From Eimeria praecox (taxonomy: Eukaryota), in assembly GCA_963920595.1 (NCBI GenBank), contig OY986946.1:9052001-9116000 (forward strand): DNA of 64,000 bases, read 5' to 3'. Made by a program: the position numbers and the translations under genes. Shown one piece after another: positions 1 to 46,719 of this stretch. Position 1 is the first letter of the stretch; each line of letters begins with the position of its first letter. The notes under the pieces are model-generated. The model was not told where the DNA came from, made no database searches, and saw only the letters and a program-made list of their open reading frames with translations.

Positions 1-54
1 AACCTGGGTTTACACGGCCACAACGTGTTGTCCTAACCTCTAGACGATTCGGAC
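1..54 (-). tRNA. tRNA-His(GUG), 3' part cut off by the window edge
   Basis: Reverse complement matches nt 1-54 of the tRNA at 302-373. Confidence 0.9.
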
Positions 55-301
55 CAGTGGCCCACCAGCACAGCCCAAGCTGCGTGGCGCCACAAGCAAG
101 CAGTCCGCTGCGGCGAGTAGGGCCAGGCGTGGATTGCACACAGTAGACGGAGAGGGCTGTTGTACGGAGGCAAGCAGACGTGAGACGGTGTGTGTTGAAG
201 ACGCATTTGGCAACAGCATGCGTGCAAGGATGGGGTCCAACTGTACTCGGGAAGATAGCAAGGTGTCTGGAAGGCGTGTGTGGTGAGGGGTGTGACTGTT
301 G

Positions 302-373
302 GTCCGAATCGTCTAGAGGTTAGGACAACACGTTGTGGCCGTGTAAACCCAGGTTCAATTCCTGGTTCGGACA
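302..373 (+). tRNA. tRNA-His(GUG), intronless; first of 54 plus-strand copies
   Basis: Cloverleaf: acceptor GTCCGAA/TTCGGAC with discriminator A; D arm GTC..GAC; anticodon stem ACACG/CGTGT with loop TT-GTG-GC; T arm CCAGG-TTCAATT-CCTGG (B box). No encoded CCA. Confidence 0.97.
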
Positions 374-394
374 CATTGGCTCGAGGCGAAACCG

Positions 395-400
395 TTTTTT
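395..400 (+). terminator. Pol III oligo-T terminator (T6) of the plus-strand tRNA, repeated in every unit
   Basis: TTTTTT begins 22 nt after the discriminator and is conserved in both unit types although neighbouring bases vary. Confidence 0.8.
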
Positions 401-844
401 GCATTCCTCCTTGTCTCACTGGTGTGTGCAGTGTGGGCCAAACCACTGGCCGGTCCAGACCACTGCGCTCGACGTCAAGAGGTGCAGTCTTATGCAGACA
501 GGCGTCTCTGGCATTGTTTCTTTTGCACCGATTGTAATGGCGATAGGTTTGACGAGATTGTGCATTGGATTGGTTGTGATGGCTTTAGTGGAATTTGTGT
601 GAGGCTTAGAGGGGACAGCGGAGTTTTGTGTGCATGGCTTGCTGGTGCACTTGGGAGAGGGTAGTGGGGGGGCTTTGAAGAGGCGAAGAGTACCGAATCT
701 GCTTTATTTGCATGCTTTGTGTATGGGTATGTTTCACACATGTGTATAAGGTATGTATTGAGGGATGTGGGAATGCGTTTTAGTGTTAGTAGGTTTTAAG
801 TTGGTGTGGTAAGAGACAGAACGTTGCAGAGGGAGGGGGACAAG

Positions 845-916
845 TGTCCGAACCAGGAATTGAACCTGGGTTTACACGGCCACAACGTGTTGTCCTAACC
901 TCTAGACGATTCGGAC
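845..916 (-). tRNA. tRNA-His(GUG); first of 53 complete minus-strand copies
   Basis: Exact reverse complement of 302-373. Confidence 0.96.
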
Positions 917-3900
917 CAGTGGCCCACCAGCACAGCCCAAGCTGCGTGGCGCCACAAGCAAGCAGTCCGCTGCGGCGAGTAGGGCCAGGCGTGGATTGCA
1001 CACAGTAGACGGAGAGGGCTGTTGTACGGAGGCAAACAGACGTGAGACGGTGTGTGTTGAAGACGCATTTGGCAACAGCATGCGTGCAAGGATGGGGTCC
1101 AACTGTACTCGGGAAGATAGCAAGGTGTCTGGAAAACGTGGGTGGTGAGGGGTGTGACTGTTGGTCCGAATCGTCTAGAGGTTAGGACAACACGTTGTGG
1201 CCGTGTAAACCCAGGTTCAATTCCTGGTTCGGACACATTGGCGCGAGGCGAAACCGTTTTTTGCATTCCTCCTTGTCTCACTGGTGTGTGCAGTGTGGGC
1301 CAAACCACTGGCCGGTCCAGACCACTGCGCTCGATGTCAAGAGGTGCAGTCTTATGCAGACAGGCGTCTCTGGCATTGTTTCTTTTGCACCGATTGTAAT
1401 GGCGATAGGTTTGACGAGATTGTGCATTGGATTGGTTGTGATGGCTTTAGTGGAATTTGTGTGAGGCTTAGAGGGGACAGCGGAGTTTTGTGTGCATGGC
1501 TTGCTGGTGCACTTGGGAGAGGGTAGTGGGGGGGCTTTGAAGAGGCGAAGAGTACCGAATCTGCTTTATTTGCATGCTTTGTGTATGGGTATGTTTCACA
1601 CATGTGTATAAGGTATGTATTGAGGGATGTGGGAATGCGTTTTAGTGTTAGTAGGTTTTAAGTTGGTGTGGTAAGAGACAGAACGTTGCAGCGGGAGGGG
1701 GACAAGTGTCCGAACCAGGAATTGAACCTGGGTTTACACGGCCACAACGTGTTGTCCTAACCTCTAGACGATTCGGACCAGTGGCCCACCAGCACAGCCC
1801 AAGCTGCGTGGCGCCACAAGCAAGCAGTCCGCTGCGGCGAGTAGGGCCAGGCGTGGATTGCACACAGTAGACGGAGAGGGCTGTTGTACGGAGGCAAACA
1901 GACGTGAGACGGTGTGTGTTGAAGACGCATTTGGCAACAGCATGCGTGCAAGGATGGGGTCCAACTGTACTCGGGAAGATAGCAAGGTGTCTCGAAGGCG
2001 TGTGTGGTGAGGGGTGTGACTGTTGGTCCGAATCGTCTAGAGGTTAGGACAACACGTTGTGGCCGTGTAAACCCAGGTTCAATTCCTGGTTCGGACACAT
2101 TGGCGCGAGGCGAAACCGTTTTTTGCATTCCTCCTTGTCTCACTGGTGTGTGCAGTGTGGGCCAAACCACTGGCCGGTCCAGACCACTGCGCTCGACGTC
2201 AAGAGGTGCAGTCTTATGCAGACAGGCGTCTCTGGCATTGTTTCTTTTGCACCGATTGTAATGGCGATAGGTTTGACGAGATTGTGCATTGGATTGGTTG
2301 TGATGGCTTTAGTGGAATTTGTGTGAGGCTTAGAGGGGACAGCGGAGTTTTGTGTGCATGGCTTGCTGGTGCACTTGGGAGAGGGTAGTGGGGGGGCTTT
2401 GAAGAGGCGAAGAGTACCGAATCTGCTTTATTTGCATGCTTTGTGTATGGGTATGTTTCACACATGTGTATAAGGTATGTATTGAGGGATGTGGGAATGC
2501 GTTTTAGTGTTAGTAGGTTTTACGTTGGTGTGGTAAGAGACAGAACGTTGCAGAGGGAGGGGGACAAGTGTCCGAACCAGGAATTGAACCTGGGTTTACA
2601 CGGCCACAACGTGTTGTCCTAACCTCTAGACGATTCGGACCAGTGGCCCACCAGCACAGCCCAAGCTGCGTGGCGCCACAAGCAAGCAGTCCGCTGCGGC
2701 GAGTAGGACCAGGCGTGGATTGCACACAGTAGATCGAGAGGGCTGTTGTACGGAGGCAAGCAGACGTGAGACGGTGTGTGTTGAAGACGCACTTGCGGAC
2801 AGCATGCGTGCAAGGATGGGGTCCAACTGTACTCGGGAAGATGGCAAGGTGTCTGGAAAACGTGGGTGGTGAGGGGTGTGACTGTTGGTCCGAATCGTCT
2901 AGAGGTTAGGACAACACGTTGTGGCCGTGTAAACCCAGGTTCAATTCCTGGTTCGGACACATTGGCTCGAGGCGAAACCGTTTTTTGCATTCCTCCTTGT
3001 CTCACTGGTGTGTGCAGTGTGGGCCAAACCACTGGCCGGTCCAGACCACTGCGCTCGACGTCAAGAGGTGCAGTCTTATGCAGACAGGCGTCTCTGGCAT
3101 TGTTTCTTTTGCACCGATTGTAATGGCGATAGGTTTGACGAGATTGTGCATTGGATTGGTTGTGATGGCTTTAGTGGAATTTGTGTGAGGCTTAGAGGGG
3201 ACAGCGGAGTTTTGTGTGCATGGCTTGCTGGTGCACTTGGGAGAGGGTAGTGGGGGGGCTTTGAAGAGGCGAAGAGTACCGAATCTGCTTTATTTGCATG
3301 CTTTGTGTATGGGTATGTTTCACACATGTGTATAAGGTATGTATTGAGGGATGTGGGAATGCGTTTTAGTGTTAGTAGGTTTTAAGTTGGTGTGGTAAGA
3401 GACAGAACGTTGCAGCGGGAGGGGGACAAGTGTCCGAACCAGGAATTGAACCTGGGTTTACACGGCCACAACGTGTTGTCCTAACCTCTAGACGATTCGG
3501 ACCAGTGGCCCACCAGCACAGCCCAAGCTGCGTGGCGCCACAAGCAAGCAGTCCGCTGCGGCGAGTAGGGCCAGGCGTGGATTGCACACAGTAGACGGAG
3601 AGGGCTGTTGTACGGAGGCAAACAGACGTGAGACGGTGTGTGTTGAAGACGCATTTGGCAACAGCATGCGTGCAAGGATGGGGTCCAACTGTACTCGGGA
3701 AGATAGCAAGGTGTCTCGAAGGCGTGTGTGGTGAGGGGTGTGACTGTTGGTCCGAATCGTCTAGAGGTTAGGACAACACGTTGTGGCCGTGTAAACCCAG
3801 GTTCAATTCCTGGTTCGGACACATTGGCGCGAGGCGAAACCGTTTTTTGCATTCCTCCTTGTCTCACTGGTGTGTGCAGTGTGGGCCAAACCACTGGCCG

Positions 3901-6900
3901 GTCCAGACCACTGCGCTCGACGTCAAGAGGTGCAGTCTTATGCAGACAGGCGTCTCTGGCATTGTTTCTTTTGCACCGATTGTAATGGCGATAGGTTTGA
4001 CGAGATTGTGCATTGGATTGGTTGTGATGGCTTTAGTGGAATTTGTGTGAGGCTTAGAGGGGACAGCGGAGTTTTGTGTGCATGGCTTGCTGGTGCACTT
4101 GGGAGAGGGTAGTGGGGGGGCTTTGAAGAGGCGAAGAGTACCGAATCTGCTTTATTTGCATGCTTTGTGTATGGGTATGTTTCACACATGTGTATAAGGT
4201 ATGTATTGAGGGATGTGGGAATGCGTTTTAGTGTTAGTAGGTTTTACGTTGGTGTGGTAAGAGACAGAACGTTGCAGAGGGAGGGGGACAAGTGTCCGAA
4301 CCAGGAATTGAACCTGGGTTTACACGGCCACAACGTGTTGTCCTAACCTCTAGACGATTCGGACCAGTGGCCCACCAGCACAGCCCAAGCTGCGTGGCGC
4401 CACAAGCAAGCAGTCCGCTGCGGCGAGTAGGACCAGGCGTGGATTGCACACAGTAGATCGAGAGGGCTGTTGTACGGAGGCAAGCAGACGTGAGACGGTG
4501 TGTGTTGAAGACGCACTTGCGGACAGCATGCGTGCAAGGATGGGGTCCAACTGTACTCGGGAAGATGGCAAGGTGTCTGGAAAACGTGGGTGGTGAGGGG
4601 TGTGACTGTTGGTCCGAATCGTCTAGAGGTTAGGACAACACGTTGTGGCCGTGTAAACCCAGGTTCAATTCCTGGTTCGGACACATTGGCGCGAGGGGAA
4701 ACCGTTTTTTGCATTCCTCCTTGTCTCACTGGTGTGTGCAGTGTGGGCCAAACCACTGGCCGGTCCAGACCACTGCGCTCGACGTCAAGAGGTGCAGTCT
4801 TATGCAGACAGGCGTCTCTGGCATTGTTTCTTTTGCACCGATTGTAATGGCGATAGGTTTGACGAGATTGTGCATTGGATTGGTTGTGATGGCTTTAGTG
4901 GAATTTGTGTGAGGCTTAGAGGGGACAGCGGAGTTTTGTGTGCATGGCTTGCTGGTGCACTTGGGAGAGGGTAGTGGGGGGGCTTTGAAGAGGCGAAGAG
5001 TACCGAATCTGCTTTATTTGCATGCTTTGTGTATGGGTATGTTTCACACATGTGTATAAGGTATGTATTGAGGGATGTGGGAATGCGTTTTAGTGTTAGT
5101 AGGTTTTAAGTTGGTGTGGTAAGAGACAGAACGTTGCAGAGGGAGGGGGACAAGTGTCCGAACCAGGAATTGAACCTGGGTTTACACGGCCACAACGTGT
5201 TGTCCTAACCTCTAGACGATTCGGACCAGTGGCCCACCAGCACAGCCCAAGCTGCGTGGCGCCACAAGCAAGCAGTCCGCTGCGGCGAGTAGGGCCAGGC
5301 GTGGATTGCACACAGTAGACGGAGAGGGCTGTTGTACGGAGGCAAACAGACGTGAGACGGTGTGTGTTGAAGACGCATTTGGCAACAGCATGCGTGCAAG
5401 GATGGGGTCCAACTGTACTCGGGAAGATAGCAAGGTGTCTCGAAGGCGTGTGTGGTGAGGGGTGTGACTGTTGGTCCGAATCGTCTAGAGGTTAGGACAA
5501 CACGTTGTGGCCGTGTAAACCCAGGTTCAATTCCTGGTTCGGACACATTGGCGCGAGGCGAAACCGTTTTTTGCATTCCTCCTTGTCTCACTGGTGTGTG
5601 CAGTGTGGGCCAAACCACTGGCCGGTCCAGACCACTGCGCTCGACGTCAAGAGGTGCAGTCTTATGCAGACAGGCGTCTCTGGCATTGTTTCTTTTGCAC
5701 CGATTGTAATGGCGATAGGTTTGACGAGATTGTGCATTGGATTGGTTGTGATGGCTTTAGTGGAATTTGTGTGAGGCTTAGAGGGGACAGCGGAGTTTTG
5801 TGTGCATGGCTTGCTGGTGCACTTGGGAGAGGGTAGTGGGGGGGCTTTGAAGAGGCGAAGAGTACCGAATCTGCTTTATTTGCATGCTTTGTGTATGGGT
5901 ATGTTTCACACATGTGTATAAGGTATGTATTGAGGGATGTGGGAATGCGTTTTAGTGTTAGTAGGTTTTACGTTGGTGTGGTAAGAGACAGAACGTTGCA
6001 GAGGGAGGGGGACAAGTGTCCGAACCAGGAATTGAACCTGGGTTTACACGGCCACAACGTGTTGTCCTAACCTCTAGACGATTCGGACCAGTGGCCCACC
6101 AGCACAGCCCAAGCTGCGTGGCGCCACAAGCAAGCAGTCCGCTGCGGCGAGTAGGACCAGGCGTGGATTGCACACAGTAGATCGAGAGGGCTGTTGTACG
6201 GAGGCAAGCAGACGTGAGACGGTGTGTGTTGAAGACGCACTTGCGGACAGCATGCGTGCAAGGATGGGGTCCAACTGTACTCGGGAAGATGGCAAGGTGT
6301 CTGGAAAACGTGGGTGGTGAGGGGTGTGACTGTTGGTCCGAATCGTCTAGAGGTTAGGACAACACGTTGTGGCCGTGTAAACCCAGGTTCAATTCCTGGT
6401 TCGGACACATTGGCGCGAGGGGAAACCGTTTTTTGCATTCCTCCTTGTCTCACTGGTGTGTGCAGTGTGGGCCAAACCACTGGCCGGTCCAGACCACTGC
6501 GCTCGACGTCAAGAGGTGCAGTCTTATGCAGACAGGCGTCTCTGGCATTGTTTCTTTTGCACCGATTGTAATGGCGATAGGTTTGACGAGATTGTGCATT
6601 GGATTGGTTGTGATGGCTTTAGTGGAATTTGTGTGAGGCTTAGAGGGGACAGCGGAGTTTTGTGTGCATGGCTTGCTGGTGCACTTGGGAGAGGGTAGTG
6701 GGGGGGCTTTGAAGAGGCGAAGAGTACCGAATCTGCTTTATTTGCATGCTTTGTGTATGGGTATGTTTCACACATGTGTATAAGGTATGTATTGAGGGAT
6801 GTGGGAATGCGTTTTAGTGTTAGTAGGTTTTAAGTTGGTGTGGTAAGAGACAGAACGTTGCAGCGGGAGGGGGACAAGTGTCCGAACCAGGAATTGAACC

Positions 6901-9900
6901 TGGGTTTACACGGCCACAACGTGTTGTCCTAACCTCTAGACGATTCGGACCAGTGGCCCACCAGCACAGCCCAAGCTGCGTGGCGCCACAAGCAAGCAGT
7001 CCGCTGCGGCGAGTAGGGCCAGGCGTGGATTGCACACAGTAGACGGAGAGGGCTGTTGTACGGAGGCAAACAGACGTGAGACGGTGTGTGTTGAAGACGC
7101 ATTTGGCAACAGCATGCGTGCAAGGATGGGGTCCAACTGTACTCGGGAAGATAGCAAGGTGTCTCGAAGGCGTGTGTGGTGAGGGGTGTGACTGTTGGTC
7201 CGAATCGTCTAGAGGTTAGGACAACACGTTGTGGCCGTGTAAACCCAGGTTCAATTCCTGGTTCGGACACATTGGCGCGAGGCGAAACCGTTTTTTGCAT
7301 TCCTCCTTGTCTCACTGGTGTGTGCAGTGTGGGCCAAACCACTGGCCGGTCCAGACCACTGCGCTCGACGTCAAGAGGTGCAGTCTTATGCAGACAGGCG
7401 TCTCTGGCATTGTTTCTTTTGCACCGATTGTAATGGCGATAGGTTTGACGAGATTGTGCATTGGATTGGTTGTGATGGCTTTAGTGGAATTTGTGTGAGG
7501 CTTAGAGGGGACAGCGGAGTTTTGTGTGCATGGCTTGCTGGTGCACTTGGGAGAGGGTAGTGGGGGGGCTTTGAAGAGGCGAAGAGTACCGAATCTGCTT
7601 TATTTGCATGCTTTGTGTATGGGTATGTTTCACACATGTGTATAAGGTATGTATTGAGGGATGTGGGAATGCGTTTTAGTGTTAGTAGGTTTTACGTTGG
7701 TGTGGTAAGAGACAGAACGTTGCAGAGGGAGGGGGACAAGTGTCCGAACCAGGAATTGAACCTGGGTTTACACGGCCACAACGTGTTGTCCTAACCTCTA
7801 GACGATTCGGACCAGTGGCCCACCAGCACAGCCCAAGCTGCGTGGCGCCACAAGCAAGCAGTCCGCTGCGGCGAGTAGGACCAGGCGTGGATTGCACACA
7901 GTAGATCGAGAGGGCTGTTGTACGGAGGCAAGCAGACGTGAGACGGTGTGTGTTGAAGACGCACTTGCGGACAGCATGCGTGCAAGGATGGGGTCCAACT
8001 GTACTCGGGAAGATGGCAAGGTGTCTGGAAAACGTGGGTGGTGAGGGGTGTGACTGTTGGTCCGAATCGTCTAGAGGTTAGGACAACACGTTGTGGCCGT
8101 GTAAACCCAGGTTCAATTCCTGGTTCGGACACATTGGCGAGAGGGGAAACCGTTTTTTGCATTCCTCCTTGTCTCACTGGTGTGTGCAGTGTGGGCCAAA
8201 CCACTGGCCGGTCCAGACCACTGCGCTCGACGTCAAGAGGTGCAGTCTTATGCAGACAGGCGTCTCTGGCATTGTTTCTTTTGCACCGATTGTAATGGCG
8301 ATAGGTTTGACGAGATTGTGCATTGGATTGGTTGTGATGGCTTTAGTGGAAATTGTGTGAGGCTTAGAGGGGACAGCGGAGTTTTGTGTGCATGGCTTGC
8401 TGGTGCACTTGGGAGAGGGTAGTGGGGGGGCTTTGAAGAGGCGAAGAGTACCGAATCTGCTTTATTTGCATGCTTTGTGTATGGGTATGTTTCACACATG
8501 TGTATAAGGTATGTATTGAGGGATGTGGGAATGCGTTTTAGTGTTAGTAGGTTTTAAGTTGGTGTGGTAAGAGACAGAACGTTGCAGCGGGAGGGGGACA
8601 AGTGTCCGAACCAGGAATTGAACCTGGGTTTACACGGCCACAACGTGTTGTCCTAACCTCTAGACGATTCGGACCAGTGGCCCACCAGCACAGCCCAAGC
8701 TGCGTGGCGCCACAAGCAAGCAGTCCGCTGCGGCGAGTAGGGCCAGGCGTGGATTGCACACAGTAGACGGAGAGGGCTGTTGTACGGAGGCAAACAGACG
8801 TGAGACGGTGTGTGTTGAAGACGCATTTGGCAACAGCATGCGTGCAAGGATGGGGTCCAACTGTACTCGGGAAGATAGCAAGGTGTCTCGAAGGCGTGTG
8901 TGGTGAGGGGTGTGACTGTTGGTCCGAATCGTCTAGAGGTTAGGACAACACGTTGTGGCCGTGTAAACCCAGGTTCAATTCCTGGTTCGGACACATTGGC
9001 GCGAGGCGAAACCGTTTTTTGCATTCCTCCTTGTCTCACTGGTGTGTGCAGTGTGGGCCAAACCACTGGCCGGTCCAGACCACTGCGCTCGACGTCAAGA
9101 GGTGCAGTCTTATGCAGACAGGCGTCTCTGGCATTGTTTCTTTTGCACCGATTGTAATGGCGATAGGTTTGACGAGATTGTGCATTGGATTGGTTGTGAT
9201 GGCTTTAGTGGAATTTGTGTGAGGCTTAGAGGGGACAGCGGAGTTTTGTGTGCATGGCTTGCTGGTGCACTTGGGAGAGGGTAGTGGGGGGGCTTTGAAG
9301 AGGCGAAGAGTACCGAATCTGCTTTATTTGCATGCTTTGTGTATGGGTATGTTTCACACATGTGTATAAGGTATGTATTGAGGGATGTGGGAATGCGTTT
9401 TAGTGTTAGTAGGTTTTACGTTGGTGTGGTTAGAGACAGAACGTTGCAGAGGGAGGGGGACAAGTGTCCGAACCAGGAATTGAACCTGGGTTTACACGGC
9501 CACAACGTGTTGTCCTAACCTCTAGACGATTCGGACCAGTGGCCCACCAGCACAGCCCAAGCTGCGTGGCGCCACAAGCAAGCAGTCCGCTGCGGCGAGT
9601 AGGACCAGGCGTGGATTGCACACAGTAGATCGAGAGGGCTGTTGTACGGAGGCAAGCAGACGTGAGACGGTGTGTGTTGAAGACGCACTTGCGGACAGCA
9701 TGCGTGCAAGGATGGGGTCCAACTGTACTCGGGAAGATGGCAAGGTGTCTGGAAAACGTGGGTGGTGAGGGGTGTGACTGTTGGTCCGAATCGTCTAGAG
9801 GTTAGGACAACACGTTGTGGCCGTGTAAACCCAGGTTCAATTCCTGGTTCGGACACATTGGCGAGAGGCGAAACCGTTTTTTGCATCCCTCCTTGTCTCA

Positions 9901-33900: not shown

Positions 33901-36900
33901 CAACTGTACTCGGGAAGATAGCAAGGTGTCTGGAGGGCGTGGGTGGTGAGGGGTGTGACTGTTGGTCCGAATCGTCTAGAGGTTAGGACAACACGTTGTG
34001 GCCGTGTAAACCCAGGTTCGATTCCTGGTTCGGACACATTGGCGCGAGGCAAAACGGTTTTTTGCATTCCTCCTTGCCTCGCTAGTGTGCGCAATGTGGG
34101 CCAAACGAGTCGCCTGTCCAGACCACTACGCTCGACGTCAAGAAGTGCAGTCTTATGCAGGCAGGCGGCTCTGGCATTGTTTCTTTTGCACCGATTGTAA
34201 TGGCGATAGGTTTGACGAGATTGTGCATTGGATTGGTTGTGATGGCTTTAGTGGAATTTGTGTGAGGCTTAGAGGGGACAGCGGAGCTTTGTGTGCATGG
34301 CTAGGTGGTGCACTTGGGAGAGGGTAGCGGGGGTGGTTTGATGAGGCAACGAGTACCGAATCTTCTTTATTTGCATGCGTTGTGTATGGGTATGTTTCAC
34401 ACGTGTGTGTAGGGTATGTATTGAGGGATGTGGCAATGAGTTGTAATGTTAGTAGGTTTTGAGTTGGTGTGGTAAGAGACTGAACGTTGCAAAGGGAGGG
34501 GGACAAGTGTCCGAACCAGGAATTGAACCTGGGTTTACACGGCCACAACGTGTTGTCCTAACCTCTAGACGATTCGGACCAGTGGTCCACAAGCACAGCT
34601 CGGCGTGTCGTGCGTGGCGCCAAACACAAACAGCCAGCAGAGGCGAGTAGGGTCAGGCGTGGATTGCACACAGTAAGTTCAAAGAGCCGTTGCAAGCAGG
34701 GCAGCAGAGATGACACATGCTGTGTTAACGGCGCATTTGGCAACAGGATGCGTGCAAGGATAGGGTCCAACTGTACTCGGGAAGATAGCAAGGTGTCTGG
34801 AGGGCGTGGGTGGTGAGGGGTGTGACTGTTGGTCCGAATCGTCTAGAGGTTAGGACAACACGTTGTGGCCGTGTAAACCCAGGTTCGATTCCTGGTTCGG
34901 ACACATTGGCGCGAGGCAAAACGGTTTTTTGCATTCCTCCTTGCCTCGCTAGTGTGCGCAATGTGGGCCAAACGAGTCGCCTGTCCAGACCACTACGCTC
35001 GACGTCAAGAAGTGCAGTCTTATGCAGGCAGGCGGCTCTGGCATTGTTTCTTTTGCACCGATTGTAATGGCGATAGGTTTGACGAGATTGTGCATTGGAT
35101 TGGTTGTGATGGCTTTAGTGGAATTTGTGTGAGGCTTAGAGGGGACAGCGGAGTTTTGTGTGCATGGCTAGGTGGTGCACTTGGGAGAGGGTAGCGGGGG
35201 TGGTTTGATGAGGCAACGAGTACCGAATCTTCTTTATTTGCATGCGTTGTGTATGGGTATGTTTCACACGTGTGTGTAGGGTATGTATTGAGGGATGTGG
35301 CAATGAGTTGTAATGTTAGTAGGTTTTGAGTTGGTGTGGTAAGAGACTGAACGTTGCAAAGGGAGGGGGACAAGTGTCCGAACCAGGAATTGAACCTGGG
35401 TTTACACGGCCACAACGTGTTGTCCTAACCTCTAGACGATTCGGACCAGTGGTCCACAAGCACAGCTCGGCGTGTCATGCGTGGCGCCAAACACAAACAG
35501 CCAGCAGAGGCGAGTAGGGTCAGGCGTGGATTGCACACAGTACGTTCAAAGAGCCGTTGCAAGCAGGGCAGCAGAGATGACACATGCTGTGTTAACGGCG
35601 CATTTGGCAACAGGATGCGTGCAAGGATAGGGTCCAACTGTACTCGGGAAGATAGCAAGGTGTCTGGAGGGCGTGGGTGGTGAGGGGTGTGACTGTTGGT
35701 CCGAATCGTCTAGAGGTTAGGACAACACGTTGTGGCCGTGTAAACCCAGGTTCAATTCCTGGTTCGGACACATTGGCGCGAGGCAAAACGGTTTTTTGCA
35801 TTCCTCCTTGCCTCGCTAGTGTGCGCAATGTGGGCCAAACCAGTCGCCTGTCCAGACCACTACGCTCGACGTCAAGAAGTGCAGTCTTATGCAGGCAGGC
35901 GGCTCTGGCATTGTTTCTTTTGCACCGATTGTAATGGCGATAGGTTTGACGAGATTGTGCATTGGATTGGTTGTGATGGCTTTAGTGGAATTTGTGTGAG
36001 GCTTAGAGGGGACAGCGGAGTTTTGTGTGCATGGCTAGGTGGTGCACTTGGGAGAGGGTAGCGGGGGTGGTTTGATGAGGCAACGAGTACCGAATCTTCT
36101 TTATTTGCATGCGTTGTGTATGGGTATGTTTCACACGTGTGTGTAGGGTATGTATTGAGGGATGTGGCAATGAGTTGTAATGTTAGTAGGTTTTGAGTTG
36201 GTGTGGTAAGAGACTGAACGTTGCAAAGGGAGGGGGACAAGTGTCCGAACCAGGAATTGAACCTGGGTTTACACGGCCACAACGTGTTGTCCTAACCTCT
36301 AGACGATTCGGACCAGTGGTCCACAAGCACAGCTCGGCGTGTCGTGCGTGGCGCCAAACACAAACAGCCAGCAGAGGCGAGTAGGGCCAGGCGTGGATTG
36401 CACACAGTAAGTTCAAAGAGCCGTTGCAAGCAGGGCAGCAGAGATGACACATGCTGTGTTAACGGCGCATTTGGCAACAGGATGCGTGCAAGGATAGGGT
36501 CCAACTGTACTCGGGAAGATAGCAAGGTGTCTGGAGGGCGTGGGTGGTGAGGGGTGTGACTGTTGGTCCGAATCGTCTAGAGGTTAGGACAACACGTTGT
36601 GGCCGTGTAAACCCAGGTTCAATTCCTGGTTCGGACACATTGGCGAGAGGGGAAACCGTTTTTTGCCTTCCTCCTTGTCTCACTGGTGTGTGCAGTGTGG
36701 GCCAAACCACTGGCCGGTCCAGACCACTGCGCTCGACGTCAAGAGGTGCAGTCTTATGCAGACAGGCGTCTCTGGCATTGTTTCTTTTGCACCGATTGTA
36801 ATGGCGATAGGTTTGACGAGATTGTGCATTGGATTGGTTGTGATGGCTTTAGTGGAATTTGTGTGAGGCTTAGAGGGGACAGCGGAGTTTTGTGTGCATG

Positions 36901-39900
36901 GCTAGGTGGTGCACTTGGGAGAGGGTAGCGGGGGTGGTTTGATGAGGCAACGAGTACCGAATCTTCTTTATTTGCATGCGTTGTGTATGGGTATGTTTCA
37001 CACGTGTGTGTAGGGTATGTATTGAGGGATGTGGCAATGAGTTGTAATGTTAGTAGGTTTTGAGTTGGTGTGGTAAGAGACTGAACGTTGCAAAGGGAGG
37101 GGGACAAGTGTCCGAACCAGGAATTGAACCTGGGTTTACACGGCCACAACGTGTTGTCCTAACCTCTAGACGATTCGGACCAGTGGTCCACAAGCACAGC
37201 TCGGCGTGTCGTGCGTGGCGCCAAACACAAACAGCCAGCAGAGGCGAGTAGGGTCAGGCGTGGATTGCACACAGTAAGTTCAAAGAGCCGTTGCAAACAG
37301 GGCAGCAGAGATGACCCATGCTGTGTTAACGGCGCATTTGGCAACAGGATGCGTGCAAGGATAGGGTCCAACTGTACTCGGGAAGATAGCAAGGTGTCTG
37401 GAGGGCGTGGGTGGTGAGGGGTGTGACTGTTGGTCCGAATCGTCTAGAGGTTAGGACAACACGTTGTGGCCGTGTAAACCCAGGTTCAATTCCTGGTTCG
37501 GACACATTGGCGCGAGGCAAAACGGTTTTTTGCATTCCTCCTTGCCTCGCTAGTGTGCGCAATGTGGGCCAAACGAGTCGCCTGTCCAGACCACTACGCT
37601 CGACGTCAAGAAGTGCAGTCTTATGCAGGCAGGCGGCTCTGGCATTGTTTCTTTTGCACCGATTGTAATGGCGATAGGTTTGACGAGATTGTGCATTGGA
37701 TTGGTTGTGATGGCTTTAGTGGAATTTGTGTGAGGCTTAGAGGGGACAGCGGAGTTTTGTGTGCATGGCTAGGTGGTGCACTTGGGAGAGGGTAGCGGGG
37801 GTGGTTTGATGAGGCAACGAGTACCGAATCTTCTTTATTTGCATGCGTTGTGTATGGGTATGTTTCACACGTGTGTGTAGGGTATGTATTGAGGGATGTG
37901 GCAATGAGTTGTAATGTTAGTAGGTTTTGAGTTGGTGTGGTAAGAGACTGAACGTTGCAAAGGGAGGGGGACAAGTGTCCGAACCAGGAATTGAACCTGG
38001 GTTTACACGGCCACAACGTGTTGTCCTAACCTCTAGACGATTCGGACCAGTGGTCCACAAGCACAGCTCGGCGTGTCGTGCGTGGCGCCAAACACAAACA
38101 GCCAGCAGAGGCGAGTAGGGTCAGGCGTGGATTGCACACAGTAAGTTCAAAGAGCCGTTGCAAGCAGGGCAGCAGAGATGACACATGCTGTGTTAACGGC
38201 GCATTTGGCAACAGGATGCGTGCAAGGATAGGGTCCAACTGTACTCGGGAAGATAGCAAGGTGTCTGGAGGGCGTGGGTGGTGAGGGGTGTGACTGTTGG
38301 TCCGAATCGTCTAGAGGTTAGGACAACACGTTGTGGCCGTGTAAACCCAGGTTCAATTCCTGGTTCGGACACATTGGCGAGAGGGGAAACCGTTTTTTGC
38401 CTTCCTCCTTGTCTCACTGGTGTGTGCAGTGTGGGCCAAACCACTGGCCGGTCCAGACCACTGCGCTCGACGTCAAGAGGTGCAGTCTTATGCAGACAGG
38501 CGTCTCTGGCATTGTTTCTTTTGCACCGATTGTAATGGCGATAGGTTTGACGAGATTGTGCATTGGATTGGTTGTGATGGCTTTAGTGGAATTTGTGTGA
38601 GGCTTAGAGGGGACAGCGGAGTTTTGTGTGCATGGCTAGGTGGTGCACTTGGGAGAGGGTAGCGGGGGTGGTTTGATGAGGCAACGAGTACCGAATCTTC
38701 TTTATTTGCATGCGTTGTGTATGGGTATGTTTCACACGTGTGTGTAGGGTATGTATTGAGGGATGTGGCAATGAGTTGTAATGTTAGTAGGTTTTGAGTT
38801 GGTGTGGTAAGAGACTGAACGTTGCAAAGGGAGGGGGACAAGTGTCCGAACCAGGAATTGAACCTGGGTTTACACGGCCACAACGTGTTGTCCTAACCTC
38901 TAGACGATTCGGACCAGTGGTCCACAAGCACAGCTCGGCGTGTCGTGCGTGGCGCCAAACACAAACAGCCAGCAGAGGCGAGTAGGGTCAGGCGTGGATT
39001 GCACACAGTAAGTTCAAAGAGCCGTTGCAAACAGGGCAGCAGAGATGACCCATGCTGTGTTAACGGCGCATTTGGCAACAGGATGCGTGCAAGGATAGGG
39101 TCCAACTGTACTCGGGAAGATAGCAAGGTGTCTGGAGGGCGTGGGTGGTGAGGGGTGTGACTGTTGGTCCGAATCGTCTAGAGGTTAGGACAACACGTTG
39201 TGGCCGTGTAAACCCAGGTTCAATTCCTGGTTCGGACACATTGGCGCGAGGCAAAACGGTTTTTTGCATTCCTCCTTGCCTCGCTAGTGTGCGCAATGTG
39301 GGCCAAACGAGTCGCCTGTCCAGACCACTACGCTCGACGTCAAGAAGTGCAGTCTTATGCAGGCAGGCGGCTCTGGCATTGTTTCTTTTGCACCGATTGT
39401 AATGGCGATAGGTTTGACGAGATTGTGCATTGGATTGGTTGTGATGGCTTTAGTGGAATTTGTGTGAGGCTTAGAGGGGACAGCGGAGTTTTGTGTGCAT
39501 GGCTAGGTGGTGCACTTGGGAGAGGGTAGCGGGGGTGGTTTGATGAGGCAACGAGTACCGAATCTTCTTTATTTGCATGCGTTGTGTATGGGTATGTTTC
39601 ACACGTGTGTGTAGGGTATGTATTGAGGGATGTGGCAATGAGTTGTAATGTTAGTAGGTTTTGAGTTGGTGTGGTAAGAGACTGAACGTTGCAAAGGGAG
39701 GGGGACAAGTGTCCGAACCAGGAATTGAACCTGGGTTTACACGGCCACAACGTGTTGTCCTAACCTCTAGACGATTCGGACCAGTGGTCCACAAGCACAG
39801 CTCGGCGTGTCGTGCGTGGCGCCAAACACAAACAGCCAGCAGAGGCGAGTAGGGTCAGGCGTGGATTGCACACAGTAAGTTCAAAGAGCCGTTGCAAGCA

Positions 39901-42900
39901 GGGCAGCAGAGATGACACATGCTGTGTTAACGGCGCATTTGGCAACAGGATGCGTGCAAGGATAGGGTCCAACTGTACTCGGGAAGATAGCAAGGTGTCT
40001 GGAGGGCGTGGGTGGTGAGGGGTGTGACTGTTGGTCCGAATCGTCTAGAGGTTAGGACAACACGTTGTGGCCGTGTAAACCCAGGTTCGATTCCTGGTTC
40101 GGACACATTGGCGCGAGGCAAAACGGTTTTTTGCATTCCTCCTTGCCTCGCTAGTGTGCGCAATGTGGGCCAAACGAGTCGCCTGTCCAGACCACTACGC
40201 TCGACGTCAAGAAGTGCAGTCTTATGCAGGCAGGCGGCTCTGGCATTGTTTCTTTTGCACCGATTGTAATGGCGATAGGTTTGACGAGATTGTGCATTGG
40301 ATTGGTTGTGATGGCTTTAGTGGAATTTGTGTGAGGCTTAGAGGGGACAGCGGAGTTTTGTGTGCATGGCTAGGTGGTGCACTTGGGAGAGGGTAGCGGG
40401 GGTGGTTTGATGAGGCAACGAGTACCGAATCTTCTTTATTTGCATGCGTTGTGTATGGGTATGTTTCACACGTGTGTGTAGGGTATGTATTGAGGGATGT
40501 GGCAATGAGTTGTAATGTTAGTAGGTTTTGAGTTGGTGTGGTAAGAGACTGAACGTTGCAAAGGGAGGGGGACAAGTGTCCGAACCAGGAATTGAACCTG
40601 GGTTTACACGGCCACAACGTGTTGTCCTAACCTCTAGACGATTCGGACCAGTGGTCCACAAGCACAGCTCGGCGTGTCGTGCGTGGCGCCAAACACAAAC
40701 AGCCAGCAGAGGCGAGTAGGGTCAGGCGTGGATTGCACACAGTAAGTTCAAAGAGCCGTTGCAAACAGGGCAGCAGAGATGACCCATGCTGTGTTAACGG
40801 CGCATTTGGCAACAGGATGCGTGCAAGGATAGGGTCCAACTGTACTCGGGAAGATAGCAAGGTGTCTGGAGGGCGTGGGTGGTGAGGGGTGTGACTGTTG
40901 GTCCGAATCGTCTAGAGGTTAGGACAACACGTTGTGGCCGTGTAAACCCAGGTTCGATTCCTGGTTCGGACACATTGGCGCGAGGCAAAACGGTTTTTTG
41001 CATTCCTCCTTGCCTCGCTAGTGTGCGCAATGTGGGCCAAACGAGTCGCCTGTCCAGACCACTACGCTCGACGTCAAGAAGTGCAGTCTTATGCAGGCAG
41101 GCGGCTCTGGCATTGTTTCTTTTGCACCGATTGTAATGGCGATAGGTTTGACGAGATTGTGCATTGGATTGGTTGTGATGGCTTTAGTGGAATTTGTGTG
41201 AGGCTTAGAGGGGACAGCGGAGTTTTGTGTGCATGGCTAGGTGGTGCACTTGGGAGAGGGTAGCGGGGGTGGTTTGATGAGGCAACGAGTACCGAATCTT
41301 CTTTATTTGCATGCGTTGTGTATGGGTATGTTTCACACGTGTGTGTAGGGTATGTATTGAGGGATGTGGCAATGAGTTGTAATGTTAGTAGGTTTTGAGT
41401 TGGTGTGGTAAGAGACTGAACGTTGCAAAGGGAGGGGGACAAGTGTCCGAACCAGGAATTGAACCTGGGTTTACACGGCCACAACGTGTTGTCCTAACCT
41501 CTAGACGATTCGGACCAGTGGTCCACAAGCACAGCTCGGCGTGTCGTGCGTGGCGCCAAACACAAACAGCCAGCAGAGGCGAGTAGGGTCAGGCGTGGAT
41601 TGCACACAGTAAGTTCAAAGAGCCGTTGCAAGCAGGGCAGCAGAGATGACACATGCTGTGTTAACGGCGCATTTGGCAACAGGATGCGTGCAAGGATAGG
41701 GTCCAACTGTACTCGGGAAGATAGCAAGGTGTCTGGAGGGCGTGGGTGGTGAGGGGTGTGACTGTTGGTCCGAATCGTCTAGAGGTTAGGACAACACGTT
41801 GTGGCCGTGTAAACCCAGGTTCGATTCCTGGTTCGGACACATTGGCGCGAGGCAAAACGGTTTTTTGCATTCCTCCTTGCCTCGCTAGTGTGCGCAATGT
41901 GGGCCAAACGAGTCGCCTGTCCAGACCACTACGCTCGACGTCAAGAAGTGCAGTCTTATGCAGGCAGGCGGCTCTGGCATTGTTTCTTTTGCACCGATTG
42001 TAATGGCGATAGGTTTGACGAGATTGTGCATTGGATTGGTTGTGATGGCTTTAGTGGAATTTGTGTGAGGCTTAGAGGGGACAGCGGAGTTTTGTGTGCA
42101 TGGCTAGGTGGTGCACTTGGGAGAGGGTAGCGGGGGTGGTTTGATGAGGCAACGAGTACCGAATCTTCTTTATTTGCATGCGTTGTGTATGGGTATGTTT
42201 CACACGTGTGTGTAGGGTATGTATTGAGGGATGTGGCAATGAGTTGTAATGTTAGTAGGTTTTGAGTTGGTGTGGTAAGAGACTGAACGTTGCAAAGGGA
42301 GGGGGACAAGTGTCCGAACCAGGAATTGAACCTGGGTTTACACGGCCACAACGTGTTGTCCTAACCTCTAGACGATTCGGACCAGTGGTCCACAAGCACA
42401 GCTCGGCGTGTCGTGCGTGGCGCCAAACACAAACAGCCAGCAGAGGCGAGTAGGGTCAGGCGTGGATTGCACACAGTAAGTTCAAAGAGCCGTTGCAAGC
42501 AGGGCAGCAGAGATGACACATGCTGTGTTAACGGCGCATTTGGCAACAGGATGCGTGCAAGGATAGGGTCCAACTGTACTCGGGAAGATAGCAAGGTGTC
42601 TGGAGGGCGTGGGTGGTGAGGGGTGTGACTGTTGGTCCGAATCGTCTAGAGGTTAGGACAACACGTTGTGGCCGTGTAAACCCAGGTTCGATTCCTGGTT
42701 CGGACACATTGGCGCGAGGCAAAACGGTTTTTTGCATTCCTCCTTGCCTCGCTAGTGTGCGCAATGTGAGCCAAACGAGTCGCCTGTCCAGACCACTACG
42801 CTCGACGTCAAGAAGTGCAGTCTTATGCAGGCAGGCGGCTCTGGCATTGTTTCTTTTGCACCGATTGTAATGGCGATAGGTTTGACGAGATTGTGCATTG

Positions 42901-45778
42901 GATTGGTTGTGATGGCTTTAGTGGAATTTGTGTGAGGCTTAGAGGGGACAGCGGAGTTTTGTGTGCATGGCTAGGTGGTGCACTTGGGAGAGGGTAGCGG
43001 GGGTGGTTTGATGAGGCAACGAGTACCGAATCTTCTTTATTTGCATGCGTTGTGTATGGGTATGTTTCACACGTGTGTGTAGGGTATGTATTGAGGGATG
43101 TGGCAATGAGTTGTAATGTTAGTAGGTTTTGAGTTGGTGTGGTAAGAGACTGAACGTTGCAAAGGGAGGGGGACAAGTGTCCGAACCAGGAATTGAACCT
43201 GGGTTTACACGGCCACAACGTGTTGTCCTAACCTCTAGACGATTCGGACCAGTGGTCCACAAGCACAGCTCGGCGTGTCGTGCGTGGCGCCAAACACAAA
43301 CAGCCAGCAGAGGCGAGTAGGGTCAGGCGTGGATTGCACACAGTAAGTTCAAAGAGCCGTTGCAAGCAGGGCAGCAGAGATGACACATGCTGTGTTAACG
43401 GCGCATTTGGCAACAGGATGCGTGCAAGGATAGGGTCCAACTGTACTCGGGAAGATAGCAAGGTGTCTGGAGGGCGTGGGTGGTGAGGGATGTGACTGTT
43501 GGTCCGAATCGTCTAGAGGTTAGGACAACACGTTGTGGCCGTGTAAACCCAGGTTCGATTCCTGGTTCGGACACATTGGCGCGAGGCAAAACGGTTTTTT
43601 GCATTCCTCCTTGCCTCGCTAGTGTGCGCAATGTGGGCCAAACGAGTCGCCTGTCCAGACCACTACGCTCGACGTCAAGAAGTGCAGTCTTATGCAGGCA
43701 GGCGGCTCTGGCATTGTTTCTTTTGCACCGATTGTAATGGCGATAGGTTTGACGAGATTGTGCATTGGATTGGTTGTGATGGCTTTAGTGGAATTTGTGT
43801 GAGGCTTAGAGGGGACAGCGGAGTTTTGTGTGCATGGCTAGGTGGTGCACTTGGGAGAGGGTAGCGGGGGTGGTTTGATGAGGCAACGAGTACCGAATCT
43901 TCTTTATTTGCATGCGTTGTGTATGGGTATGTTTCACACGTGTGTGTAGGGTATGTATTGAGGGATGTGGCAATGAGTTGTAATGTTAGTAGGTTTTGAG
44001 TTGGTGTGGTAAGAGACTGAACGTTGCAAAGGGAGGGGGACAAGTGTCCGAACCAGGAATTGAACCTGGGTTTACACGGCCACAACGTGTTGTCCTAACC
44101 TCTAGACGATTCGGACCAGTGGTCCACAAGCACAGCTCGGCGTGTCGTGCGTGGCGCCAAACACAAACAGCCAGCAGAGGCGAGTAGGGTCAGGCGTGGA
44201 TTGCACACAGTAGATCGAGAGGGCTGTTGTACGGAGGTAAGCAGGCGTGAGGCGGGGTGTGTTGAAGACGCATTTGGCAACAGGATGCGTGCAAGGATGG
44301 GGTCCAACTGTACTCGGGAAGATAGCAAGGTGTCTGGAGGGCGTGGGTGGTGAGGGGTGTGACTGTTGGTCCGAATCGTCTAGAGGTTAGGACAACACGT
44401 TGTGGCCGTGTAAACCCAGGTTCGATTCCTGGTTCGGACACATTGGCGCGAGGCAAAACGGTTTTTTGCATTCCTCCTTGCCTCGCTAGTGTGCGCAATG
44501 TGGGCCAAACCAGTCGCCTGTCCAGACCACTACGCTCGACGTCAAGAAGCGCAGTCTTATGCAGGCAGGCGGCTCTGGCATTGTTTCTTTTGCACCGATT
44601 GTAATGGCGATAGGTTTGACGAGATTGTGCATTGGATTGGTTGTGATGGCTTTAGTGGAATTTGTGTGAGGCTTAGAGGGGACAGCGGAGTTTTGTGTGC
44701 ATGGCTAGGTGGTGCACTTGGGAGAGGGTAGCGGGGGTGGTTTGATGAGGCAACGAGTACCGAATCTTCTTTATTTGCATGCGTTGTGTATGGGTATGTT
44801 TCACACGTGTGTGTAGGGTATGTATTGAGGGATGTGGCAATGAGTTGTAATGTTAGTAGGTTTTGAGTTGGTGTGGTAAGAGACTGAACGTTGCAAAGGG
44901 AGGGGAACAAGTGTCCGAACCAGGAATTGAACCTGGGTTTACACGGCCACAACGTGTTGTCCTAACCTCTAGACGATTCGGACCAGTGGTCCACAAGCAC
45001 AGCTCGGCGTGTCGTGCGTGGCGCCAAACACAAACAGCCAGCAGAGGCGAGTAGGGTCAGGCGTGGATTGCACACAGTAGATCGAGAGGGCCGTTGTACG
45101 GAGGTAAGCAGGCGTGAGGCGGGGTGTGTTGAAGACGCATTTGGCAACAGCATGCGTGCAAGGATAGGGTCCAACTGTACTCGGGAAGATAGCAAGGTGT
45201 CTGGAGGGCGTGGGTGGTGAGGGGTGTGACTGTTGGTCCGAATCGTCTAGAGGTTAGGACAACACGTTGTGGCCGTGTAAACCCAGGTTCGATTCCTGGT
45301 TCGGACACATTGGCGCGAGGCAAAACGGTTTTTTGCATTCCTCCTTGCCTCGCTAGTGTGCGCAGTGTGGGCCAAACCAGTCGCCTGTCCAGACCACTAC
45401 GCTCGACGTCAAGAAGTGCAGTCTTATGCAGGCAGGCGGCTCTGGCATTGTTTCTTTTGCACCGATTGTAATGGCGATAGGTTTGACGAGATTGTGCATT
45501 GGATTGGTTGTGATGGCTTTAGTGGAATTTGTGTGAGGCTTAGAGGGGACAGCGGAGTTTTGTGTGCATGGCTAGGTGGTGCACTTGGGAGAGGGTAGCG
45601 GGGGTGGTTTGATGAGGCAACGAGTACCGAATCTTCTTTATTTGCATGCGTTGTGTATGGGTATGTTTCACACGTGTGTGTAGGGTATGTATTGAGGGAT
45701 GTGGCAATGAGTTGTAATGTTAGTAGGTTTTGAGTTGGTGTGGTAAGAGACTGAACGTTGCAAAGGGAGGGGGACAAG

Positions 45779-45850
45779 TGTCCGAACCAGGAATTGAACC
45801 TGGGTTTACACGGCCACAACGTGTTGTCCTAACCTCTAGACGATTCGGAC
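45779..45850 (-). tRNA. tRNA-His(GUG), last minus-strand copy
   Basis: Same 72-nt sequence, at 26705+867x22. Confidence 0.95.
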
Positions 45851-46102
45851 CAGTGGTCCACAAGCACAGCTCGGCGTGTCGTGCGTGGCGCCAAACACAA
45901 ACAGCCAGCAGAGGCGAGTAGGGTCAGGCGTGGATTGCACACAGTAGATCGAGAGGGCTGTTGTACGGAGGTAAGCAGGCGTGAGGCGGGGTGTGTTGAA
46001 GACGCATCTGGCAACAGCATGCGTGCAAGGATAGGGTCCAACTGCACTCGGGAAGATAGCAAGGTGTCTGGAGGGCGTGGGTGGTGAGGGGTGTGACTGT
46101 TG

Positions 46103-46174
46103 GTCCGAATCGTCTAGAGGTTAGGACAACACGTTGTGGCCGTGTAAACCCAGGTTCGATTCCTGGTTCGGACA
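46103..46174 (+). tRNA. tRNA-His(GUG), last plus-strand copy (T-loop variant TTCGATT)
   Basis: Same cloverleaf. The A-to-G T-loop change is common among plus-strand copies of the 867 block. Confidence 0.95.
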
Positions 46175-46719
46175 CATTGGCGCGAGGCAAAACGGTTTTT
46201 TGCATTCCTCCTTGCCTCGCTAGTGTGCGCAGTGTGGGCCAAACCAGTCGCCTGTCCAGACCACTACGCTCGACGTCAAGAAGTGCAGTCTTATGCAGAC
46301 AGGCGTCTCTGGCATTGTTTCTTTTGCACCGATTGTAATGGCGATAGGTTTGACGAGATTGTGCATTGGATTGGTTGTGATGGCTTTAGTGGAATTTGTG
46401 TGAGGCTTAGAGGGGACAGCGGAGTTTTGTGTGCATGGCTAGGTGGTGCACTTGGGAGAGGGTTGTTTTGGGGCTTTGAAGAGGCGAAGAGTACCGAATC
46501 TGCTTTATATGCTTGCGTTGTGTATGATTGTGGTTCACATGCGTTTGAAGGTTATGTATTGAGGGATGTGGCAATGCGTTTGAGTGTCAGTAGTTTTGAG
46601 TTATTAAAGATAGAGCAACAACAACAGCAACATTGGCAAGAGAGGCCGCTGCAGCAGACAGTGCTGACGCAACCCAGGGTGAAACACGGTTGCAGGGCCT
46701 GCTTTATGTGGTTTGCTGC

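What the first reader, a model, noticed from the sequence alone, without database searches (positions are those of the whole stretch)
1..46602. Satellite-like array of more than 100 tRNA-His genes in inverted pairs, about 9 kb from rDNA
There are 54 plus and 53 (+1 partial) minus copies of one tRNA across at least 46.6 kb, far more than His codon demand would plausibly need. Tandem tRNA arrays are known in Entamoeba, and tRNA genes serve as chromatin barriers at fission-yeast centromeres. I am not aware of a description of a single-isoacceptor inverted-pair array in coccidia. Possible roles include a TFIIIC/condensin platform, a centromere or boundary, nucleolar tethering, or a source of tRNA fragments (all inference).
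Basis: partly seen in the sequence, partly recalled or inferred. Interest (0 to 1): 0.75.

Follow-up and report, generated by a model that had tools for sequence, protein, structure and literature searches.

The report
Giant histidine-tRNA gene array in Eimeria

Summary
Observation confirmed. The window holds 54 plus, 53 minus and one partial tRNA-His(GTG) genes in 862/867-bp units, ending 8.9 kb from an rDNA unit. It is not an assembly expansion: 42 of 53 units differ, two subfamilies show higher-order repeats and recombinants, and contigs of two studies cover the unit 44-88 times deeper than the single-copy flank (roughly 140-180 genes).

The whole tRNA is conserved in both orientations (1 difference in 144 nt between subfamilies, 10.7 expected), and variants never cross between orientations. 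This points to selection on the RNA, not only on a TFIIIC site.

All minus copies lack a nearby terminator; read-through would form a 73-bp hairpin.

The organism is Eimeria-like (inferred from a neighbouring retroelement). E. tenella has 326-345 tRNA genes and a tRNA cluster mentioned in passing, so arrays are not unique in the genus; I found no description of this one.

Best reading: a gene-dosage array, possibly serving His-rich oocyst-wall proteins such as GAM22 (22% His). Expression is untested. The centromere and barrier ideas have no positive support. New variant of a known kind.

The parts
1..46600 (.). Tandem array of inverted tRNA-His(GTG) pairs; open at the left window edge
1..26360 (.). 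Subfamily A block (862-bp units; two-unit higher-order repeat in the first 11 units)
   Evidence: (mean differences at lag 1/2/3/4 = 15.4/2.2/14.8/2.9)
26365..46600 (.). Subfamily B block (867-bp units; four-unit higher-order repeat; A/B recombinant units at 29630, 33098, 36566, 38300 and in the last three complete units)
   Evidence: (lag 4 = 4.4 vs 9-13 at most other lags)
302..373 (+). Example plus-strand tRNA-His gene (54 copies); G at -1
395..400 (+). T6 run 22 nt after the plus gene, the predicted Pol III terminator (54 of 54 copies)
374..844 (.). Tail-to-tail spacer, about 470 bp, 7.4% diverged between A and B
506..639 (.). 134-bp tract identical in the A and B consensus; unexplained (recombination tract or functional element)
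   Evidence: no Rfam, Pfam or folding signal
845..916 (-). Example minus-strand tRNA-His gene (53 copies plus one partial); G at -1; no T4 within 450 nt and no T5 within 3 kb downstream
917..1163 (.). Head-to-head spacer, 247 bp (A) or 252 bp (B), 19.4% diverged between A and B
46601..52585 (.). Mostly single-copy DNA between array and rDNA; no Pfam hit above cut-off in the 6 long ORFs tested here
55495..62135 (-). Neighbouring rDNA unit: 18S 60340-62135, 5.8S 59747-59900, 28S 55495-59312 (interrupted by a retroelement fragment)

Best explanation
This is a real tandem array of intact tRNA-His genes in inverted pairs, which likely spread by unequal crossing-over beside the rDNA and likely serves as a gene-dosage reservoir of histidine tRNA, most plausibly for the burst of His-rich oocyst-wall protein made in macrogametocytes. 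Shown: the array, its two subfamilies, higher-order repeats and recombinant units, high read depth, and conservation of the whole tRNA in both orientations. Inferred: unequal crossing-over as the amplifier; purifying selection on the RNA; Pol III transcription from the internal A/B boxes, with plus copies ending at T6 and minus copies released from a long trailer by 3' endonucleolytic processing. Conjectured: that oocyst-wall synthesis is the demand being met.
For: (1) Real high copy number. In run X2 (study P2) five flank contigs with 0-1 differences have depth 47-55; single unit contigs have 2288, 2614 and 2810, and the sum at 46266 is 4050 (44-78 fold). In X1 (study P1) the flank is 498-534 and 46266 is 45718 (about 88 fold). 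(2) Constraint on the RNA. The A and B consensus differ at 1 of 144 tRNA positions against 35 of 471 and 49 of 252 spacer positions; 10.7 are expected at the lower rate, Poisson P = 2.6e-4. Across 53 units, 4 of 144 tRNA columns vary against 124 of 723 spacer columns (Fisher p = 5.9e-7). (3) Conversion between the inverted copies is an unlikely cause: the plus variant (14 of 54) is in 0 of 53 minus copies, the three minus variants (5, 4 and 1 copies) are in 0 of 54 plus copies, and all 53 units align end to end with no flipped spacer. (4) All four variants keep the cloverleaf (B-box purine, two G-U wobbles, one D-loop base); weak evidence, since 22 of 42 stem transitions would keep a pair. [quoted passage not shown]
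Against: All 53 minus copies lack a nearby terminator, odd for simple tRNA factories. A 134-bp spacer tract is as conserved between A and B as the genes, so A/B exchange alone can make long identical tracts, which weakens point 2. GAM22 is documented in E. tenella and E. necatrix, not in this organism. Other oocyst formers are annotated with only 144-174 tRNA genes in total, and E. falciformis has no contig with more than 10, though draft assemblies collapse arrays. P. falciparum has 72 tRNA genes in all yet makes very His-rich proteins (recalled). For Entamoeba arrays the authors think many copies are inactive (PMC2652664). The depth tool warns that summed contig depth is not a copy number, and X1/X3 may be the assembly's own sample.
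Confidence: 0.45

Rival explanations
1. Near-neutral amplification: Eimeria tends to array tRNA genes in tandem, the pair was amplified in a recombination-prone region by the rDNA, and only the sequence of the gene is selected, not its number; most copies are silent.
For: E. tenella has 345 or 326 tRNA genes against 144-174 in relatives and a tRNA cluster on chromosome 6 with TGTTGC repeats between the genes (PMC9131526). The subfamilies and higher-order repeats look like ordinary satellite turnover. The B-type share differs between samples (about 24 vs 39 units, my estimate).
Against: If most copies were silent, subfamilies 7-19% apart in their spacers should show damaged genes; 0 of 107 are damaged. 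Total size is similar in samples of two studies ten years apart.
Confidence: 0.27
2. Nuclear-architecture element: the dense A/B boxes bind TFIIIC and condensin and act as a barrier at the rDNA edge, a nucleolar tether or a centromere.
For: The array lies 8.9 kb from what looks like the last rDNA unit. Pol III genes cluster at the nucleolus, and tRNA genes recruit pericentric condensin in yeast (PMC1635290, PMC4210444; search listing and abstract starts only). A terminator is not needed for a DNA-level role.
Against: Acceptor stem, anticodon arm and G-1 are conserved, not only the boxes. E. tenella centromeres lie almost all in intergenic regions of 15-74 kb, with no tRNA arrays mentioned (PMC8515493). 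A barrier needs one or a few genes (recalled from yeasts), not over 100.
Confidence: 0.13
3. Small-RNA or antisense locus: terminator-less minus copies read through the spacer into the antisense of the plus gene, giving a 73-bp hairpin or antisense RNA that is diced or that silences the array; or the array feeds tRNA-His fragments.
For: 0 of 53 minus copies have a T4 within 450 nt; the 31 minus genes before 27 kb have none before the plus gene. The read-through RNA folds into a continuous tRNA-length stem (this follows from the geometry and is not independent evidence). tRNA halves occur in Toxoplasma, and His(GTG) is among the four main fragment sources in P. falciparum vesicles (PMC11764236).
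Against: 18 of the 22 later minus genes meet a T4 at 454 nt, just before the plus gene. 3' processing would cut the tRNA off before the hairpin forms (inference). A hairpin would not need a perfect cloverleaf. An RNAi pathway in this organism was not shown.
Confidence: 0.12
4. Assembly artefact: a few copies expanded by the assembler.
For: No spanning long read was seen; the listed contigs are short.
Against: 42 distinct sequences among 53 units, structured variants and recombinants; 44-88 fold depth in runs of two studies.
Confidence: 0.03

Closest known systems
Entamoeba tRNA gene arrays (PMC2652664, passages read)
   Same: Long tandem arrays of units holding intact tRNA genes; conserved genes with fast-changing spacers; two variants of one array can coexist; function unresolved.
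   Different: Entamoeba arrays nearly all isotypes (25 arrays, 1-5 acceptor types per unit), has short tandem repeats in E. histolytica/E. dispar spacers, and may use the arrays as chromosome ends. Here one isotype occurs twice per unit in inverted orientation, with no spacer repeats, and the visible end is internal, next to rDNA.
tRNA cluster on E. tenella chromosome 6 (one sentence in PMC9131526)
   Same: Same genus (inferred); a cluster of tRNA genes with repeated spacer sequence; E. tenella has about twice the tRNA gene count of its relatives.
   Different: Isotype, size and orientation are not given in the passages or the supplement I searched. Its spacer carries TGTTGC repeats; Tandem Repeats Finder finds no short repeat in this array. 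Homology untested.
Silk-gland tRNA-Ala/Gly gene amplification in silk moths and spiders (recalled, no call)
   Same: Proposed logic: many copies of one tRNA gene serve mass synthesis of a compositionally biased structural protein.
   Different: There tissue-specific expression is shown; here it is not, and the inverted-pair layout is different.
Yeast tRNA-gene barriers and condensin sites (PMC1635290, PMC4210444; listing only)
   Same: tRNA genes near rDNA or heterochromatin.
   Different: One to a few mixed-isotype genes; binding shown experimentally there, untested here.
Genome-encoded G-1 in C. elegans tRNA-His genes (PMC4338351, passages read)
   Same: G at -1 opposite A73: 16 of 17 genes there, 107 of 107 here.
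   Different: C. elegans lacks Thg1; whether Eimeria does was not tested, so the G may be incidental.

Membership tests
Functional eukaryotic tRNA-His gene (Pol III type 2) | Intact cloverleaf, GTG anticodon, A73 | tested here: met
   107 of 107 called; only non-Watson-Crick stem pair is T13-G22; six variant forms by strand, all structure-keeping
Functional eukaryotic tRNA-His gene (Pol III type 2) | Internal A and B boxes | tested here: met
   Read from the sequences; the only B-box variant is A/G at the purine position (consensus recalled)
Functional eukaryotic tRNA-His gene (Pol III type 2) | Oligo-T terminator close downstream: plus copies | tested here: met
   T6 at +22 in 54 of 54
Functional eukaryotic tRNA-His gene (Pol III type 2) | Oligo-T terminator close downstream: minus copies | tested here: not met
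   No T4 within 450 nt and no T5 within 3 kb in 53 of 53
Functional eukaryotic tRNA-His gene (Pol III type 2) | Transcribed and charged | not testable with these tools
   Needs RNA or Pol III occupancy data
Entamoeba-type tRNA array | Tandem units carrying intact tRNA genes | tested here: met
Entamoeba-type tRNA array | Short tandem repeats between genes (E. histolytica/E. dispar only) | tested here: not met
   0 of 3 TRF rows fall in the array
Entamoeba-type tRNA array | Most isotypes of the genome arrayed | not testable with these tools
   No genome held
tRNA-derived satellite or SINE | Decayed or partial tRNA body, with tail or target duplication | tested here: not met
   Genes are far more conserved than spacers; the two orientations share only the gene plus 2 nt upstream and 1 nt downstream
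Coccidian centromere | CenH3 occupancy, Hi-C clustering, one per chromosome | not testable with these tools
   E. tenella centromeres are described as intergenic regions of 15-74 kb; size fits, content is not described as tRNA
tRNA-gene chromatin barrier | TFIIIC-dependent block to heterochromatin spread | not testable with these tools
   Only proximity to rDNA is shown

The most novel reading that the evidence does not exclude
A protist counterpart of silk-gland tRNA amplification: Eimeria keeps 140-180 tRNA-His genes beside the rDNA and switches them on for His-rich oocyst-wall synthesis, while read-through from the terminator-less minus copies makes antisense or hairpin RNA that holds the array silent at other stages.
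Probability: 0.12. Interest if true: 0.85.

Novelty: new variant of a known kind. Interest (0 to 1): 0.55.

Why it matters
One array would hold about as many tRNA genes as the whole annotated set of Toxoplasma, Cyclospora or E. falciformis (144-174), all for a rare amino acid. It offers a clean test of why some protists build tRNA arrays, a question left open for Entamoeba: with one isotype, dosage predicts a matching codon demand at a specific stage, and a structural role does not. If tied to oocyst-wall synthesis, it would reveal tRNA-level control of parasite transmission. The conserved terminator-less copies also raise a question about Pol III termination in Apicomplexa. In practice, the high-copy, fast-evolving spacers could be sensitive diagnostic or typing markers.

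Tried and rejected
No whole genome is held, so other isotypes, GAM22, Thg1 and RNAi genes could not be counted. No RNA holder was listed among the 3 runs; this says nothing about expression. A base-by-base depth profile over one whole unit was not obtained, so copy number rests on the 750 bp of unit. X3 (same sample as X1, fragmented flank contigs) was left out of the copy estimate. The tRNA core had 0 exact matches in metagenome contigs. Earlier scan notes held nothing relevant. Hidden ncRNA in the spacers: no credible Rfam hit at E up to 5 in 45200-55500; 20 folding windows had z between -1.2 and +1.6; no paired C/D boxes or telomere-template motif in the tail spacer. A PHD-like look of the unit's plus-strand frame gave no Pfam hit; 0 of 7 ORFs passed a cut-off. 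No strongly His-rich ORF in the flank (3 stop-to-stop frames at 11-13% His). The unit has no significant similarity to the rest of the window (best E 0.53). The primary GAM22 paper (PMC2238154) is not held. PMC11912684, PMC8092007 and PMC4199364 had nothing on nuclear tRNA arrays in the passages found; their supplements were not searched and may hold tRNA tables.
Full report
Observation. ARAGORN tRNA-His(GTG) genes, 54 plus and 53 minus, from 302 to 46175; a partial minus gene fills 1-55. Each unit reads: plus gene, about 470 bp tail-to-tail spacer, minus gene, 247 or 252 bp head-to-head spacer. The two orientations share only the 72-nt gene plus 2 nt upstream and 1 nt downstream. The last unit decays near 46464-46600; about 6 kb of mostly single-copy DNA follows, then rDNA spacer repeats and an rDNA unit on the minus strand, 28S ending at 55495.

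Organism. No genome is held. A 662-aa reverse transcriptase ORF at 53138-55126 has its 7 best hits, of 195, in named Eimeria species (E. maxima 92% identity over 52% of the query; others 49-76%), then 33-35% to a gregarine, oomycetes and unnamed proteins. CAG and TGCA repeats in the flank fit. I infer Eimeria; the species is not determined.

Is it real? Of 53 complete units 42 are distinct. Subfamily A (862 bp) and B (867 bp) differ at 85 of 867 columns and meet in one junction near 26360. There is a two-unit higher-order repeat in early A, a four-unit one in B, and several A/B recombinants. In run X2 (2013, study P2) five flank contigs with 0-1 differences have depth 47-55; single unit contigs have 2288, 2614 and 2810, and all contigs at 46266 sum to 4050. 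In X1 (2023, study P1) the flank is 498-534 and 46266 sums to 45718. The other letters listed there are the A-type alleles, so both subfamilies occur in both samples. My estimate is 70-90 units, or 140-180 genes, of which the window shows 54 units. The tool warns that summed contig depth is no copy number, so this is an order of magnitude; X1 may be the assembly's own sample, and X3 (same sample) was left out.

What is conserved. Between the A and B consensus the genes differ at 1 of 144 positions, the spacers at 35 of 471 and 49 of 252; at the lower rate 10.7 are expected (P = 2.6e-4). Across all units 4 of 144 gene columns vary against 124 of 723 (p = 5.9e-7). The four variants keep the structure, though about half of random stem transitions would (22 of 42). 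No variant is shared between orientations and no spacer is flipped, so conversion between inverted copies is an unlikely reason for their identity. I infer purifying selection on the whole RNA in both orientations. Against this, a 134-bp spacer tract is also identical between A and B, with no Rfam, Pfam or folding signal; A/B exchange can therefore make long identical tracts, or that tract has a function. All 107 genes have G at -1, as in 16 of 17 C. elegans tRNA-His genes (PMC4338351, passages); whether it is used here is untested.

The asymmetry. All 54 plus genes have T6 at +22. None of the 53 minus genes has a T4 within 450 nt or a T5 within 3 kb; 18 of the last 22 meet a T4 at 454 nt, back to back with the plus terminator, and the first 31 have none before the plus gene. 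A read-through RNA would end in the antisense of the plus gene and fold into a tRNA-length stem. Either minus transcripts are cut from a long trailer, or they use a non-canonical stop, or they give antisense RNA, or they are silent. Their conservation argues against the last.

Mechanism. Inferred history: an inverted second copy of a tRNA-His gene formed a pair; the pair was amplified and is homogenised by unequal crossing-over next to the rDNA; two spacer subfamilies diverged while the genes were held. Inferred function: dosage. [quoted passage not shown] That link is a conjecture (0.45 for the package). Near-neutral amplification is the main rival (0.27), then a nuclear-architecture role (0.13), an antisense or small-RNA role (0.12) and artefact (0.03).

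What is known. E. tenella is annotated with 345 tRNAs (PMC8515493, first of two parts of the text) or 326 (PMC10739835, passages), against 174 in T. gondii, 144 in C. cayetanensis (PMC4851813, passages) and 151 in E. falciformis (PMC4287421, passages). One sentence notes a tRNA cluster on E. tenella chromosome 6 with TGTTGC repeats between genes (PMC9131526, passages and a supplement search); the isotype was not given in what I saw. A repeat survey of 64 apicomplexan genomes found 23 repeat models made of intact tRNA genes, some with long conserved flanks, without describing them in the passages read (PMC9141347). Tandem tRNA arrays are well described in Entamoeba (PMC2652664, passages); a 74-genome survey found most adjacent tRNA pairs parallel (PMC2888827, passages). 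Seven searches found no description of a tRNA-His or inverted-pair array in coccidia; the library covers open-licence papers and bioRxiv only, and most supplements were not searched.

Verdict. A real, probably undescribed array; a new variant of a known kind. It works like a concertedly evolving multigene family of tRNA genes. It is not an Entamoeba-type array by descent as far as can be tested, and not a decayed tRNA satellite. Interest 0.55: surprising scale and layout, an unexplained terminator asymmetry and a cheap decisive test, set against no expression data and signs that tRNA clusters already occur in the genus.

Noticed in passing
window 52940-55030 (minus strand; ORF 53138-55126): 5'-truncated non-LTR retrotransposon of the R2 superfamily (RT and zinc-binding domains by Pfam; C-terminal endonuclease motif read by eye), inserted in rDNA spacer subrepeats that carry the motif TCTTAAGG (52847, 55229, 55320). 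Depth in X2 falls from 780-1050 at the 3' end to 167 further 5' (single copy 52), as expected for many truncated copies. 'LINE R2' elements in Eimeria are listed in PMC9141347, with no target site in the passages read.
   Followed up: partly
window about 56597-56948 (plus strand), inside the 28S gene: A second, diverged 3' fragment of the same element family (62% identity over 337 nt, 79% over 81 nt) interrupts the 28S at the region used by R2 (site recalled), but antisense to the rRNA. Both insertions suggest an rDNA-targeting element with reversed orientation. The spread of its distant hits (oomycetes, arthropods, sponge, turtle) recalls the U2-targeting Utopia/NeSL group (recalled, untested). 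It may deserve its own follow-up.
   Followed up: partly
window 55495-64000: This rDNA unit looks like the last of its array: interrupted 28S, then spacer repeats giving way to single-copy DNA. It is probably a non-functional edge copy (inference). Spacer subrepeats near 52583-52888 have very high depth (86708 vs 52 in X2).
   Followed up: partly
window 302-46175, base before each gene: G at position -1 in 107 of 107 tRNA-His genes although the upstream flanks of the two orientations are otherwise unrelated; possible Thg1-independent G-1 as in C. elegans.
   Followed up: partly
window 47333-48078 and 51898-52623; 46891-47049 and 51119-51271: Old, diverged duplications (65-68% identity) within the single-copy flank.
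   Followed up: no
window 1-46600: Strong, uniform G-over-C skew on the plus strand (0.26-0.33 per 2 kb) that stops at the array edge.
   Followed up: no
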